Positions 2,179 to 28,800 are shown, counted from the stretch's first letter. The stretch is 62,606 bases of DNA from a virus (IMGVR_UViG_3300035703_000095:1-62606); one strand, 5' to 3'. The notes: generated from the sequence alone by a model not told the origin. Translations and numbers: made by a program.

Positions 2179-2504
2179 TGGGAAAACATTATCTACTTAA
2201 TTTGTATGGATGCTCATTTGTCCTACTGGACGATGAGCGTTGTCTTATAGATTTACTAGAAAATGCAGCCGCTGCAAGTGGTGCTACAGTAATTCAAACC
2301 ATTTCTAAAAAGTTTGATCCTCAGGGAGTTACTGTACTCTGTTTGCTGTCAGAAAGTCATATCAGTATTCATACTTGGCCAGAGGAAGGAACTGCAGCAG
2401 TAGATGTTTATACTTGTGGTGATTGCAACCCAAAGATTGGATGTGATATTATTATTCAACAACTTTATGCAACTGATCATAAGTTAACTTATATTGAGCG
2501 GTAA
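2178..2504 (+). CDS. speD: S-adenosylmethionine decarboxylase proenzyme
   Basis: GKH start, FDPQGVT, LSESHISIHTWPE (Glu-Ser pyruvoyl cleavage site), DVYTCG. Confidence 0.93.
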   Translation: MGKHYLLNLYGCSFVLLDDERCLIDLLENAAAASGATVIQTISKKFDPQGVTVLCLLSESHISIHTWPEEGTAAVDVYTCGDCNPKIGCDIIIQQLYATDHKLTYIER

Positions 2505-2514
2505 CAAATGTTAC
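2501..2514. promoter_or_regulatory. NtcA binding site
   Basis: GTAACAAATGTTAC matches GTA-N8-TAC and is palindromic; 8 nt upstream of a -35 box. Confidence 0.75.
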
Positions 2515-2522
2515 AAAAGTAC

Positions 2523-2551
2523 TTGACTATATAAGTCAATGGGTCTATAAT
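2523..2551 (+). promoter_or_regulatory. sigma70-type promoter of the riboswitch operon
   Basis: TTGACT-17-TATAAT; predicted start near 2558, just before the aptamer. Confidence 0.85.
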
Positions 2552-2558
2552 TACCCAA

Positions 2559-2598
2559 CGTTCATCCCTATGGGACGGAAGTAAGCCGACTCGGAACG
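2559..2598 (+). ncRNA. glutamine riboswitch aptamer 1 (glnA-motif type)
   Basis: CGTTCA-[TCCC-TAT-GGGA]-CGGAAGTAAGCCGACTCG-GAACG; P1 CGTTC/GAACG and the CGGAAGTA core. Confidence 0.8.
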
Positions 2599-2601
2599 GA
2601 T

Positions 2602-2771
2602 CGTTCATCTATGGAAGCACTCATTCTAACCTGCTTACAAGCACAATTAATTGCTGGAAGAGTCTATCAACAAGGTCTTCCGAAACAAGCAAAGAATGAT
2701 TTAATTTGGGAGATTAAACAGATCTCTCCAAAGGAGTGTAAAATAGACGCAAAAGCCGACTGAAGGAACGC
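2602..2771 (+). ncRNA. glutamine riboswitch aptamer 2 with expanded P2 loop
   Basis: CGTTCA-TCTAT...ATAGA-CGCAAAAGCCGACTGAAGGAACGC; shares AAGCCGACT with aptamer 1. Confidence 0.65.
2611..2763 (+). CDS. 50-aa ORF nested in aptamer 2
   Basis: Hand translation: MEALILTCLQAQLIAGRVYQQGLPKQAKNDLIWEIKQISPKECKIDAKAD*. Confidence 0.6.
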   Translation: MEALILTCLQAQLIAGRVYQQGLPKQAKNDLIWEIKQISPKECKIDAKAD

Positions 2772-2803
2772 TCTTTAACCTAAAAAACTAAGGAGAAAAC
2801 CTA

Positions 2804-2941
2804 ATGTCTAAAGTAGTATATCGCGGCGTTGAATACGATACGCAAAAGCGTTTAGAGTATCAACAGCAGATGATGCAACAACCCCAACAGTACAACGAAA
2901 CCTATCGCGGTGTTAAGTTTGTAAAGGAGGGGCACAAATGA
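2804..2941 (+). CDS. DUF4278-family small protein
   Basis: AAGGAG RBS; MSKVVYRGVEY...TYRGVKF has two YRGV motifs; Gln-rich; lies downstream of a glutamine riboswitch as is typical for the family. Confidence 0.85.
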   Translation: MSKVVYRGVEYDTQKRLEYQQQMMQQPQQYNETYRGVKFVKEGHK

Positions 2942-3039
2942 ATACTTACTTCGTTCGTTATCTCAAGAAAAAAGCAAAGAAGGAACAACTTCTTCATAAC
3001 GCACAATTGAATATGGCAAAGCAACCACAAGTTGCATGA
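2938..3039 (+). CDS. 33-aa basic peptide
   Basis: AGGAGG RBS, ATGA overlap; MNTYFVRYLKKKAKKEQLLHNAQLNMAKQPQVA*. Confidence 0.65.
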   Translation: MNTYFVRYLKKKAKKEQLLHNAQLNMAKQPQVA

Positions 3040-3042
3040 TAT

Positions 3043-3072
3043 AAGAGGGGACTTGACTCCCCTCTTTTTTTT
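3043..3072 (+). terminator. intrinsic terminator
   Basis: AGAGGGGA-CTTGAC-TCCCCTCT followed by a T run. Confidence 0.9.
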
Positions 3073-3081
3073 AACTATAAT
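3053..3081 (+). promoter_or_regulatory. sigma70 promoter overlapping the terminator
   Basis: TTGACT (3053) -17- TATAAT (3076). Confidence 0.75.
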
Positions 3082-3102
3082 TAGTTCATCAGGATTGATT
3101 CT

Positions 3103-3282
3103 ATGGATAAAGAAAAACTCAAACTGATTGTAAAAAATCTTGAATCTCTTGTAGAATGCCTTAAATCGGAAGTTTATTCTGATCCAGAGTCTTATAAACA
3201 AGAGTCTAGATATAATCAAATTTCTAATTACATAACAGATTACGACGAAGTATTTTATGACGATGATGGATATCCCGACTGA
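3103..3282 (+). CDS. 59-aa hypothetical protein
   Basis: Hand translation MDKEKLKLIVKNLESLVECLKSEVYSD...DDDGYPD*; AGGA RBS. Confidence 0.75.
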   Translation: MDKEKLKLIVKNLESLVECLKSEVYSDPESYKQESRYNQISNYITDYDEVFYDDDGYPD

Positions 3283-3982
3283 ATATGAGTTCATGAAACC
3301 AGAAGTAAAACTCATTAGTGTGACACCAGATGCAGAGAAGCATATGGCGTATTGTGCAAGGGTTAGTAACCCTAATAACCAACATAATGATAAGTTTTCT
3401 GGTCTTCTCAAGTATTGCATTCAGCATCAACACTGGAGCATCTTTGAGCAGGCTTCAATGACTGTTGAGATCAATACTACAAGAGGAATTGCAGCCCAGA
3501 TACTGCGCCACCGTTCGTTTACATTCCAGGAATTTTCACAACGGTATGCCGACACAAATCTTTTGGGCGGAACTATTCCTCTTCCAGAACTGCGCCGACA
3601 AGATGATAAGAATCGTCAAAATAGTATTGATGACATTCCCGATTATTTGAAACTGGTTCTCCTAGAGGACATTCGCGTTCTCTTTGAGCACTCTCAGAGG
3701 GTCTACAATCGCCTTCTAGAGAAAGGTGTGGCAAAGGAGTGCGCTCGCTTTGTATTGCCCTTAGCGACGCCTACACGCCTCTATATGACTGGCTCTGTAA
3801 GGTCATGGGTGCATTATATCGATCTCCGTTCGGCCCATGGAACGCAGAAAGAACACATGGAGATTGCAGAACTGGTTCGTTGTATTTTTACTTGCCAGTT
3901 TCCTGCAGTATCTGAAGCACTTGGGTGGACTCGTGATGGATGTTCTGAGTGTGTAGATGCTCCATCCATCACCATTGAATAA
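3257..3982 (+). CDS. thyX: flavin-dependent thymidylate synthase
   Basis: HWSIFE and RHRSFTFQEFSQRY signature; true start may be 3293. Confidence 0.96.
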   Translation: MTMMDIPTEYEFMKPEVKLISVTPDAEKHMAYCARVSNPNNQHNDKFSGLLKYCIQHQHWSIFEQASMTVEINTTRGIAAQILRHRSFTFQEFSQRYADTNLLGGTIPLPELRRQDDKNRQNSIDDIPDYLKLVLLEDIRVLFEHSQRVYNRLLEKGVAKECARFVLPLATPTRLYMTGSVRSWVHYIDLRSAHGTQKEHMEIAELVRCIFTCQFPAVSEALGWTRDGCSECVDAPSITIE

Positions 3983-28335: not shown

Positions 28336-28408
28336 GCCCGTGTAGTCCAACGGCAGAGACAGAGGACTTAAAATCCTTCCAGTGTCGGTTCGAATCCGAC
28401 CACGGGTA
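28336..28408 (+). tRNA. tRNA-Leu(UAA), short variable arm
   Basis: Acceptor GCCCGTG/CACGGGT, anticodon arm GAGGA-CT-TAA-AA-TCCTT, T arm GTCGG-TTCGAAT-CCGAC; no encoded CCA. Confidence 0.9.
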
Positions 28409-28728: not shown

Positions 28729-28800
28729 GCCCTTGTAGCTCAGTGGTAGAGCAACGGTTTTGTAAACCGTTGGTCGTCTGTTCGAATCAGATCGGGGGCT
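28729..28800 (+). tRNA. tRNA-Thr(UGU)
   Basis: GCCCTTG/CGGGGGC acceptor, ACGGT-TT-TGT-AA-ACCGT, TTCGAAT loop. Confidence 0.93.

What the first reader, a model, noticed from the sequence alone, without database searches (positions are those of the whole stretch)
2602..2771. A 50-codon ORF nested inside the P2 loop of a riboswitch aptamer
Seen: aptamer 2 begins CGTTCA-TCTAT and resumes about 130 nt later with ATAGA-CGCAAAAGCCGACTGAAGGAACG. The ATG (2611) overlaps the 5' strand of P2 and the TGA (2761) lies in the 3' aptamer core, so the last codons (IDAKAD*) are aptamer sequence. Inference: translation of this ORF and folding of the aptamer are mutually exclusive, giving a coupled switch in which aptamer 1 gates the ORF, the ORF gates aptamer 2, and aptamer 2 gates DUF4278.
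Basis: partly seen in the sequence, partly recalled or inferred. Interest (0 to 1): 0.8.

Follow-up and report, generated by a model that had tools for sequence, protein, structure and literature searches.

The report
Protein gene inside a riboswitch aptamer
A cyanophage glutamine-sensing RNA switch carries a real, conserved 50-codon protein gene inside one of its own hairpin loops, so the same stretch of RNA has to serve both as sensor and as message, an arrangement that turns out to be common in cyanophages and is missed by standard annotation.

Summary
Window 2602-2770 is a glutamine (glnA-type) aptamer whose first hairpin (P2) is interrupted by 130 nt. These hold a 50-codon ORF (2611-2763) that starts in the 5' strand of P2 and stops in the aptamer core.

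It is not chance. A scan of viral contigs with the 3' half alone returned 120 loci, 115 of them evaluable. In 85 of those 115 the 5' half lay 138-195 nt upstream, and every one held an intact ORF.

- P2 pairing is kept by compensatory changes across the ORF.
- ORF interiors show median dN/dS of 0.15.
- Synonymous sites are biased so that closing the aptamer costs almost nothing.

Either aptamer of the tandem pair, or both, can hold such an ORF, and the two ORF sets are homologous two-cysteine helical-hairpin proteins. The aptamer variant is nearly absent from cellular genomes.

Its three-step cascade is not general, because 42 of 119 loci have a nested ORF in the first aptamer, with nothing upstream to gate it. 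I favour self-gating: the folded aptamer hides its own nested start codon, and translating ribosomes erase the aptamer. This is not tested. I found no description in the papers I could search.

The parts
2523..2551 (+). Sigma-70-like promoter, TTGACT-17-TATAAT. The implied transcript start is about 2558, at the 5' edge of aptamer 1.
   Evidence: 11 of 12 matches. Similar sites with at most 3 mismatches lie 7-10 nt upstream of the first aptamer in 75 of 113 loci. This is a consensus match only.
2557..2602 (+). Aptamer 1, a contiguous glutamine riboswitch aptamer.
   Evidence: Rfam RF01739, 35.6 bits against a gathering score of 35.
2602..2612 (+). 5' half of aptamer 2: P1 5' strand CGUUC (2602-2606), A2607, P2 5' strand UCUAU (2608-2612).
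   Evidence: CGTTCA is invariant in 84 of 84 unique split sequences.
2611..2763 (+). Nested ORF of 50 aa (MEALILTCLQ...KECKIDAKAD) with two invariant cysteines (C8, C43). The last six codons and the stop codon are aptamer sequence.
   Evidence: median dN/dS 0.148; C8 and C43 invariant in 81 sequences; AlphaFold2 pLDDT 87, two helices; phrog_504, E 0.021.
2617..2622 (+). 5' strand of a predicted extension of P2 (GCACUC) that pairs with 2734-2739.
   Evidence: Minimum-free-energy fold. 79% of cells are paired and 2 of 6 pairs show compensatory change in 36 relatives. The helix was derived from this sequence, so support is modest.
2734..2739 (+). 3' strand of the P2 extension (GAGUGU). It includes the codon of the second conserved cysteine.
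2743..2770 (+). 3' half of aptamer 2: P2 3' strand AUAGA (2743-2747), J2/3 and P3 and J3/1 (2748-2765), P1 3' strand GAACG (2766-2770). The stop codon UGA is at 2761-2763.
   Evidence: (25.1 bits to the model of contiguous homologues). Same 3' half as the contiguous aptamer 2 of phage S-CREM1.
2771..2795 (+). Predicted expression platform: CUCUUUA (2771-2777) pairs with UAAGGAG (2789-2795), the Shine-Dalgarno sequence of the next gene.
   Evidence: -7.4 kcal/mol, but z-score only -1.0. The same platform follows contiguous and split aptamers in the window's clade.
2804..2941 (+). DUF4278 / IF17-like ORF of 45 aa, with two YRGV motifs.
   Evidence: Pfam PF14105, E 0.0017, 19.1 bits, below the cut-off of 25.3. 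phrog_5049, E 1e-10. A YRG-bearing ORF follows the array in 113 of 119 loci.
2938..3039 (+). 33-aa ORF that overlaps the stop of the previous gene (ATGA). It is the last ORF of the unit.
   Evidence: Weak phrog_545 match, E 0.024.
3043..3076 (+). Intrinsic-terminator-like hairpin followed by a T run.

Best explanation
The locus is a compact cyanophage transcription unit. It runs from a promoter at about 2523-2551 to a terminator at about 3043-3076. It opens with two glutamine aptamers in tandem and ends with an IF17-like (DUF4278) gene.

SHOWN:
- The second aptamer is split. Its P2 hairpin loop has been expanded to 130 nt that encode a conserved 50-aa protein with two cysteines and two helices.
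- Both layers are under selection at once. The protein is under purifying selection.
- P1 and P2 still pair across the ORF. P2 keeps pairing through compensatory changes, and synonymous sites are chosen so that closing the aptamer costs about 0.5 kcal/mol.
- The start codon always sits in, or directly after, the 5' strand of P2, with no spacer and no Shine-Dalgarno sequence.
- The stop codon usually lies in the aptamer core.

INFERRED:
- A ribosome that initiates or terminates on the nested ORF physically covers one half of the aptamer. Each RNA molecule therefore alternates between a message state and a sensor state.
- The folded, glutamine-stabilised aptamer most likely hides its own nested start codon. 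At the same time it opens the Shine-Dalgarno sequence of the IF17-like gene, as known type-1 glutamine riboswitches do.
- When the aptamer is loose, or not yet fully transcribed, the nested ORF is translated and the ribosomes erase the aptamer. The terminating ribosome would cover the anti-SD.

The module (aptamer plus nested ORF) occurs in either or both positions of the tandem pair, and the two sets of nested proteins are homologous.
For: Anatomy.

Recurrence:
- 85 of 115 evaluable viral contigs found through the 3' half alone are split, and 85 of 85 hold an ORF.
- The same arrangement is in phage genomes DSL-LC02, S-SRM01, DSL-LC03 and P-SSM4.

P2 covariation:
- There are 17 distinct strand combinations.
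- 95% of cells are paired, against 74 +/- 3.5% when partners are shuffled (0 of 5000 shuffles reach the observed value).
- Three Watson-Crick pair types occur at each of positions 3-5.

Coding:
- 183 equal-length pairs were compared, of which 154 have dS above 0.05.
- Among those 154, median dN/dS is 0.148, the maximum is 0.91 and all are below 1. Pooled pN/pS is 0.27.
- Both cysteines are invariant in 81 sequences.
- A profile search finds 361 clusters at E<=0.001, nearly all of 49-85 aa.

RNA closure:
- In the window, P2 pair probability is 0.71-0.84 and P1 pair probability is 0.44-0.48.
- The cost of forcing P1 and P2 is 0.56 kcal/mol for native sequences and 4.2 for a shuffled interior. 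Native is below the shuffled mean in 74 of 74 sequences processed.
- Against protein-preserving synonymous recodings the cost is 0.56 versus 2.0 kcal/mol. Native is lower in 79 of 79, and 84 of 790 recodings do as well as native.

Start and stop positions:
- The ATG lies 9, 10 or 11 nt from the C of CGTTCA in 40, 24 and 25 of 89 aptamer-2 ORFs.
- It lies 10, 11 or 12 nt away in 27, 12 and 2 of 41 aptamer-1 ORFs.
- The stop lies at +16 in 84 of 89.

Same platform and same downstream gene as contiguous aptamers.

Homology of aptamer-1 and aptamer-2 nested proteins: hhalign 94.9%, E 4.6e-8.

RNA presence, a weak hint only:
- Metatranscriptome contigs from 4 runs of 4 studies cover 2566-2949 at summed depths of hundreds to thousands.
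- The neighbouring speD gene is covered at 0-27.
- Single contigs span 2592-2755 and 2593-2763.
Against: - No experiment or data set here shows that the ORF is translated or that the split RNA binds glutamine.
- J2/3 of aptamer 2 reads CGCAAAAG instead of the Rfam consensus CGGAAGUA. Even the contiguous homologue in S-CREM1 scores 33.5 bits, below the gathering score of 35.
- P1 and P2 are predicted to form without ligand. In the solved aptamer, ligand binding is reported to act at the P1-J2/3 junction rather than on P2 (passages of PMC11477058). Glutamine-dependence of start-codon occlusion is therefore not implied by the structure.
- The anti-SD/SD hairpin is no more stable than in shuffled sequence (z-score -1.0).
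- The loci are related to one another, so counts such as 79 of 79 are not independent events.
- The depths sum relatives and cannot rank genes.
- The stop position varies (-14 to +31), so overlap at the 3' end is not obligatory.
Confidence: 0.6

Rival explanations
1. One reading: aptamer 1 controls initiation at the nested ORF, translation of the ORF controls folding of aptamer 2, and aptamer 2 controls the DUF4278 gene.
For: - In the window, aptamer 1 ends 8 nt before the nested AUG.
- The P1 3' strand of aptamer 1 (GGAACG) is complementary to the P1 5' strand of aptamer 2 (CGUUC), which lies 3 nt downstream. The state of aptamer 1 could therefore free or trap the 5' half of aptamer 2 (sequence; inference).
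- Steps 2 and 3 share the evidence given for the best explanation.
Against: - 42 of 119 loci have a nested ORF in the first aptamer, with no aptamer upstream.
- The linkers are the same with and without a nested ORF and hold no Shine-Dalgarno or anti-SD sequence.
- The tight placement of the AUG at P2 is the same in first-position and second-position modules, which points to control by the host aptamer itself.
Confidence: 0.15
2. Passive cargo: the P2 loop tolerates insertions, and a small phage gene has settled there to share a promoter. Translation and sensing simply take turns, with no regulatory meaning.
For: - The P2 loop length varies in contiguous aptamers (11-17 nt between CGTTCA and CGCAA).
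- The distal end of P2 is not described as part of the ligand pocket (passages of PMC11477058).
- The stop position is variable.
- Phage genomes favour overlapping features (general knowledge).
Against: - The AUG is never more than one base beyond the P2 5' strand in 89 of 89 and 41 of 41 modules, and it has no Shine-Dalgarno sequence, whereas the next gene has a strong one.
- Synonymous sites are selected for aptamer closure.
- The protein family sampled so far nearly always ends in aptamer-encoded residues (the sample was not random).
Confidence: 0.2
3. Dead aptamer: the two halves are relics of a disrupted riboswitch, and only the ORF matters.
For: - Rfam does not call the split aptamer.
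- J2/3 departs from the consensus.
Against: - The non-coding CGTTCA is invariant in 84 of 84 unique sequences, although synonymous sites of the ORFs are near saturation.
- P2 shows compensatory covariation.
- Synonymous sites are selected for closure.
- The halves are identical to those of the contiguous aptamers.
Confidence: 0.03
4. No protein: the insertion is a structured RNA domain that only happens to be open.
For: - The interior is predicted to be highly structured.
- There is no direct evidence of translation.
Against: - 89 of 89 frames are open.
- Length changes keep the frame.
- Median dN/dS is 0.148.
- Two cysteine codons are invariant.
- The AlphaFold2 model built from the alignment is confident.
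Confidence: 0.02

Closest known systems
Tandem type-1 glutamine riboswitches (glnA RNA, Rfam RF01739) upstream of gifB/IF17-like DUF4278 genes. Sources: Weinberg 2010 (PMC2864571), passages read; Klahn 2018 (PMC6212724), passages read; tandem-riboswitch review (PMC9481103), passages read; Ames and Breaker 2011 is recalled only, because it is not held.
   Same: - Same P1, P2 and P3 scaffold and the same CGUUCA...GGAACG core.
- Same tandem arrangement.
- Same kind of downstream gene and a Shine-Dalgarno-masking platform.
- Phage S-CREM1 has the contiguous version of this very array.
   Different: - The P2 loop is 128-215 nt long and encodes a conserved protein that overlaps the aptamer at its start and usually at its stop.
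- J2/3 is a CGCAA variant.
- The aptamer is not detected by the Rfam model.
- None of the passages I read mentions an ORF inside the aptamer.
Short ORFs inside sensing mRNA leaders, such as mgtL in the Salmonella mgtA Mg2+-sensing leader (recalled, not read here).
   Same: A coding frame lies within a ligand-sensing leader RNA, and its translation competes with alternative RNA structures that set expression of the downstream gene.
   Different: - Those are leader peptides whose amino-acid sequence matters mainly for ribosome pausing.
- Here the product is a 49-69 aa protein family under purifying selection with a confident predicted fold.
- Here the frame sits inside a hairpin loop of the aptamer itself.
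Group I introns with ORFs in peripheral loops, for example the phage T4 td intron (recalled, not read here).
   Same: A structured, functional RNA whose peripheral loop hosts a protein gene. The ORF ends can reach into core pairings, and translation and RNA folding interfere with each other. The system is found in phage.
   Different: The host RNA is a ribozyme, not a metabolite sensor. The ORF encodes a mobility enzyme. The nested protein here shows no sign of mobility function.
Dual-function RNAs such as SgrS/SgrT and RNAIII/hld (recalled).
   Same: One RNA both encodes a small protein and acts through its structure.
   Different: Those act in trans by base pairing, and the coding and regulatory parts are mostly separate. 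Here the coding part is enclosed by, and overlaps, a cis-acting aptamer.
PHROG families phrog_504 and phrog_6471 (unknown function).
   Same: The nested proteins match them. P-SSM4 169.3 matches phrog_504 at 5.6e-16, P-SSM4 169.2 matches phrog_6471 at 1.2e-29, and the window ORF matches phrog_504 at 0.021.
   Different: The families carry no functional note and no mention of the RNA context.

Membership tests
Glutamine riboswitch type 1 (glnA RNA, RF01739): aptamer 2 | P1 helix CGUUC/GAACG closing the three-way junction | tested here: met
   2602-2606 pairs with 2766-2770. The helix is invariant in 36 of 36 and 84 of 84 sequences. Predicted pair probability is 0.44-0.48 despite the 160-nt span.
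Glutamine riboswitch type 1 (glnA RNA, RF01739): aptamer 2 | P2 hairpin directly after CGUUCA, supported by covariation | tested here: met
   There are 17 strand combinations with 95% of cells paired, and 0 of 5000 shuffles reach this value. Three Watson-Crick pair types occur at each of positions 3-5. The loop is 128-215 nt instead of a few nt.
Glutamine riboswitch type 1 (glnA RNA, RF01739): aptamer 2 | Conserved J2/3 (consensus CGGAAGUA) and the small P3 hairpin | tested here: inconclusive
   P3 (AG-CCGA-CU) is present. J2/3 reads CGCAAAAG, resembling the CGCAG of the Glutamine-II consensus shown. The same variant occurs in contiguous phage aptamers.
Glutamine riboswitch type 1 (glnA RNA, RF01739): aptamer 2 | Score at or above the Rfam gathering threshold | tested here: not met
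   There is no hit even at E<=10. The contiguous S-CREM1 homologue scores 33.5 against 35. P-SSM4, where both aptamers are split, gives no Glutamine hit. This failure is expected from the insertion and is a limit of the model.
Glutamine riboswitch type 1 (glnA RNA, RF01739): aptamer 2 | Selective binding of L-glutamine | not testable with these tools
   Needs in-line probing or ITC.
Glutamine riboswitch type 1 (glnA RNA, RF01739): aptamer 2 | Position in the 5' leader of a DUF4278 / IF17-like gene | tested here: met
   An ORF at 2804-2941 follows 33 nt after the aptamer. A YRG-bearing ORF follows in 113 of 119 loci.
Glutamine riboswitch type 1 (RF01739): aptamer 1 | Rfam gathering score | tested here: met
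   35.6 bits against 35.
Leader-peptide attenuators (mgtL type) | The ORF acts through its translation only, and the product is not conserved as a protein | tested here: not met
   Median dN/dS is 0.148, the cysteines are invariant and the predicted fold is confident.
phrog_504 (phage small protein, unknown function) | Significant profile match | tested here: inconclusive
   The window ORF matches at E 0.021 and the P-SSM4 homologue at 5.6e-16. The window ORF aligns with 80 relatives.
DUF4278 (PF14105): downstream ORF | Pfam gathering score | tested here: not met
   19.1 bits against 25.3, E 0.0017. phrog_5049 matches at 1e-10. The two YRGV motifs are read from the sequence.

The most novel reading that the evidence does not exclude
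The aptamer-with-ORF module is a self-contained switch with two outputs. With glutamine bound, the closed aptamer hides its own nested start codon and unmasks the IF17-like gene. Without glutamine, or while the 3' half is still untranscribed, ribosomes read the nested two-cysteine protein and thereby erase the sensor. One RNA element would then set the ratio of two small proteins from both the glutamine level and the translational capacity of the infected cell. The module has duplicated as a unit within the tandem array.
Probability: 0.3. Interest if true: 0.9.

Novelty: new variant of a known kind. Interest (0 to 1): 0.8.

Why it matters
Riboswitch aptamers are treated as non-coding. Here a metabolite-sensing aptamer encloses and overlaps a protein gene that is under purifying selection. 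The same nucleotides are also selected for RNA closure, across hundreds of phage lineages.

- **A test system.** It gives a natural, compact system of about 170 nt for studying competition between translation and riboswitch folding.
- **An annotation gap.** Covariance-model annotation misses these aptamers altogether. P-SSM4 has two and yields no Rfam hit, so counts of phage riboswitches are too low and the small genes are listed as stand-alone hypothetical proteins.
- **A link to nitrogen status.** It ties a widespread small-protein family of unknown function (361 clusters at 50% identity) to glutamine sensing, and through the IF17-like neighbour to control of host glutamine synthetase during infection.

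Tried and rejected
- **Rfam on the split aptamer.** Rfam gave no hit at E<=10 on 2500-2830.
- **Own covariance model.** The model built from 26 contiguous aptamers finds aptamer 1 (28.8 bits) and only the 3' half of aptamer 2, paired with a false nearby 5' partner. This is a hit-length limit of the method, not evidence against the aptamer.
- **RNAalifold.** On 36 relatives it recovered P1 across the ORF but not P2, and showed no covariation within that subfamily, where P2 is invariant.
- **MAFFT alignment of all 84 split sequences.** It aligned on the ATG and broke the P2 register. P2 was therefore counted by fixed offsets in a script.
- **Foldseek.** Searching the model against the PDB gave no match at E<=0.001. 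A two-helix hairpin is too simple to place.
- **ESM Atlas.** No usable hit.
- **Pfam on the nested ORFs.** Nothing found.
- **Splicing-like removal of the insert.** The joints 2609-2746 in RNA contigs carry 8-9 other letters between the two sides. They are relatives with ordinary hairpins, not excision.
- **Parts of the window without RNA contig cover** (2502-2565 and beyond 3045). No conclusion was drawn.
- **Closed or unavailable sources.** Ames and Breaker 2011 and Ren 2015 are not held, and supplements are closed. Whether the original motif papers or their supplementary alignments note long P2 insertions could not be checked.

Full report
**What is in the window**

Reading 2200-3300 and listing ORFs gives the following order:
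- the end of a speD-like gene (2178-2504; a related phage record annotates the matching stretch as SpeD, row H25);
- a TTGACT-17-TATAAT promoter-like site at 2523-2551;
- an Rfam Glutamine aptamer at 2557-2602 (35.6 bits, gathering score 35);
- then, 0 nt later, CGTTC-A-TCTAT (2602-2612).

The frame that opens at ATG 2611 runs for 50 codons to TGA 2761-2763. The sequence ATAGA-CGCAAAAGCCGACTGAAGGAACG occupies 2743-2770.

Downstream lie a predicted hairpin, CUCUUUA (2771-2777) paired with UAAGGAG (2789-2795), a 45-aa DUF4278-like ORF (2804-2941), a 33-aa ORF (2938-3039) and a terminator-like hairpin (3043-3066 plus a T run).

**Is the second aptamer real?**

Rfam does not call it. The estuarine phage S-CREM1 carries the same array with an ordinary short P2 hairpin in the second aptamer. 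Its 3' half and its downstream platform are nearly letter for letter those of the window.

Phages DSL-LC02, S-SRM01 and DSL-LC03 have the split form with an ORF. Prochlorococcus phage P-SSM4 has both aptamers split, each with an annotated small gene (PSSM4_169.2 and 169.3). P-SSM4 gives no Rfam Glutamine hit at all.

In P-SSM4 the second aptamer's P2 reads TCCTT/AAGGA, against TCTAT/ATAGA in the window. That is two compensatory changes.

**Census**

I scanned IMG/VR with a pattern for the 3' half only.

- 5 loci are cut by a contig end.
- Of the other 115, 85 have CGTTCA 138-195 nt upstream of CGCAA. All 85 have an intact ORF of 49-66 aa that starts 9-11 nt after the C of CGTTCA.
- The remaining 30 have a short hairpin.

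Adding the window and three phage genomes gives 89 split aptamers with 17 distinct P2 strand combinations. Of their cells, 95% form standard pairs, against 74 +/- 3.5% when partners are shuffled (0 of 5000 shuffles reach the observed value). Positions 3, 4 and 5 each show three Watson-Crick pair types.

Because the search used only the 3' half, the 5' half, its complementarity and the ORF are independent observations.

The same pattern in one genome for each of 185,579 prokaryote species gave only 3 hits. Two are short MAG contigs. The third is a 189,106-bp contig of a Prochlorococcus single-cell assembly, the same length as one of the viral contigs. This aptamer variant is essentially a phage feature.

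**Is the ORF coding?**

- Among 84 unique coding sequences, 183 equal-length pairs of at least 60% identity were compared over interior codons only, leaving out the first 4 and last 6 codons.
- For the 154 pairs with dS above 0.05, median dN/dS is 0.148 and the maximum is 0.91. Pooled pN/pS is 0.27.
- Length differences keep the frame.
- Two cysteine codons are invariant in 84 DNA rows and 81 protein rows.
- AlphaFold2 with the 81-row alignment gives a confident two-helix hairpin (pLDDT 87.1, helices 8-20 and 25-37).
- The fold has no significant match in the PDB, and the protein has no Pfam family.
- A profile search of 1.84 billion representatives finds 361 clusters at E<=0.001, nearly all 49-85 aa.

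I read 20 of those hits, chosen for unusual lengths rather than at random. Most end in residues that translate the aptamer 3' half in one frame or another (DAKAD, DAND..LKERT..WRNG). One runs on in frame into the DUF4278 gene.

**Can the halves pair across the ORF?**

In the window, ViennaRNA predicts P2 pair probabilities of 0.71-0.84 and P1 probabilities of 0.44-0.48. It also predicts an extension of P2, with GCACUC 2617-2622 pairing with GAGUGU 2734-2739. In 36 relatives that extension has 79% of cells paired and 2 of 6 pairs with compensatory change. The helix was derived from this sequence, so this support is modest.

The energy cost of forcing P1 and P2 was compared with two kinds of control:

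| Comparison | Native | Control | Native below control mean |
|---|---|---|---|
| Window, interior shuffled | 0.83 kcal/mol | 3.98 +/- 2.16 | n/a |
| 74 of 84 unique sequences (time limit), interior shuffled | mean 0.56 | 4.2 | 74 of 74 |
| Interior codons replaced by synonymous ones drawn from the family's usage | 0.56 | 2.0 | 79 of 79 |

In the synonymous test, 84 of 790 recodings do as well as the native sequence. Synonymous sites therefore carry a second constraint, that of keeping the aptamer closable. The sequences are related to one another, so these counts overstate independence.

**Architecture of the array**

Among 119 evaluable loci the two aptamers are arranged as follows:

| First aptamer | Second aptamer | Loci |
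|---|---|---|
| contiguous | split | 54 |
| split | split | 30 |
| contiguous | contiguous | 14 |
| split | contiguous | 12 |
| three contiguous | then split | 1 |
| array cut by a contig end | | 8 |

- First-position ORFs are 61-69 aa. They start 10-12 nt from the C of CGTTCA (27, 12 and 2 of 41). They stop in P2, in the core, or 11-14 nt before P2.
- They are homologous to the second-position ORFs from cysteine to cysteine (hhalign 94.9%, E 4.6e-8).
- The linkers between the aptamers are the same short strings in all four arrangements and hold no Shine-Dalgarno sequence.
- The gene after the array has a strong Shine-Dalgarno sequence and is YRG-bearing (DUF4278-like) in 113 of 119 loci.

**Mechanism**

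Shown:
- Aptamer and ORF overlap, and both are under selection.
- The AUG is welded to P2.
- The platform and the downstream gene are those of ordinary tandem glutamine riboswitches.

From established knowledge:
- An initiating ribosome protects roughly 15 nt on each side of the start codon, and a terminating one a similar span. Ribosomes at AUG 2611 or UGA 2761 therefore exclude P1 and P2.
[quoted passage not shown] Here that segment would be C2771 plus UCUUU.

Inferred:
- The folded aptamer hides its own nested start.
- Translation of the nested ORF erases the aptamer.
- The terminating ribosome would also cover the anti-SD, giving a second route to the IF17-like gene.

Points against my own reading:
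- P1 and P2 are predicted to form without ligand.
- Ligand action in the solved aptamer is described at the P1-J2/3 junction (passages of PMC11477058), so glutamine-dependence of occlusion is unproven.
- The platform hairpin is not unusually stable (z-score -1.0).

**Expression**

Contigs of four metatranscriptome runs from four studies lie on 2566-2949 at summed depths of hundreds to thousands, against 0-27 over speD. Single contigs span the whole split aptamer (2592-2755 and 2593-2763).

These are contigs of relatives as well as of this phage. Depth is summed, and DNA can be present in RNA libraries. I take this only as a hint that the unit is abundant as RNA.

**Literature**

Searches made (all paper search):
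- glutamine riboswitch + cyanophage;
- glnA RNA + Downstream-peptide + ORF;
- glutamine riboswitch + tandem + open reading frame;
- riboswitch / aptamer / coding sequence within / small protein;
- glutamine riboswitch + linchpin;
- riboswitch + within the aptamer + open reading frame + phage;
- DUF4278 + phage;
- riboswitch + nested + open reading frame + hairpin loop + aptamer.

Passages were read in PMC2864571, PMC9481103, PMC9964418, PMC6212724, PMC12379486, PMC9004378 and PMC11477058.

None describes a coding frame inside a glutamine aptamer.

**Verdict**

The feature is real, widespread and under dual constraint. It is a new architectural variant of a known riboswitch class. The regulatory logic remains to be tested.

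Noticed in passing
L005 (P-SSM4) 396-630 and 632-826: Both aptamers of the tandem pair are split, each with an annotated small gene (PSSM4_169.2 and 169.3). Rfam at E<=1 reports no Glutamine hit in this locus, only manA RNA at 119-304.
   Followed up: yes
window 2541-2556: The -10 box TATAAT sits in the loop of a small palindrome (GGGT..ACCC). In other loci the arms differ but stay complementary (for example AGGG/CCCT, GAGG/CCTC, TGTGTT/AACACA). This suggests a hairpin or an operator overlapping the promoter, or a 5' stem-loop if transcription starts further upstream.
   Followed up: partly
window 2575, 2599 (aptamer 1) and 2750, 2771 (aptamer 2); loci: I compared the third base of J2/3 (CG[G/C]AA) with the base after P1. 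I recall, but did not verify, that these form the G-C 'linchpin' pair. They are C and G in both aptamers in 81 loci. They are G,G in aptamer 1 and C,C in aptamer 2 in 29 loci, including the window's clade, and G,A / C,C in 3 loci. In the window's clade the bases would match only across the two aptamers.
   Followed up: partly
window 2950-2989: A weak aptamer-like match (10.2 bits, E 0.014, model R1) lies inside the 33-aa ORF. It may be a decayed third aptamer or chance.
   Followed up: no
protein P0009: A 116-aa predicted protein in which a nested ORF reads through the usual stop (..DAKADW..) and continues in frame into the DUF4278 gene. It could be a natural fusion, a readthrough variant or a sequencing error.
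   Followed up: no
window 3053-3081: A second TTGACT-17-TATAAT site overlaps the terminator and precedes the next small ORF (3103-3282, phrog_878, E 1.9e-18). The region looks like a row of small, self-contained early units.
   Followed up: no
window 28336-28408 and 28729-28800: Two tRNA genes (Rfam tRNA, 58.1 and 68.3 bits).
   Followed up: no
window 2609-2746, RNA contigs of runs X16 and X19: The same metatranscriptomes hold relatives in which the 136-nt insert is replaced by an 8-9 nt loop. Split and contiguous forms therefore co-occur in one community.
   Followed up: partly
loci L020, L022, L023, L036, L040 and others (first aptamer): The first-position nested ORFs of the window's clade begin with a signal-peptide-like stretch (MTKALLLLAWVPLLS..) and end with a cysteine as the last residue. 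This hints that these small proteins are exported or inserted into a membrane.
   Followed up: no
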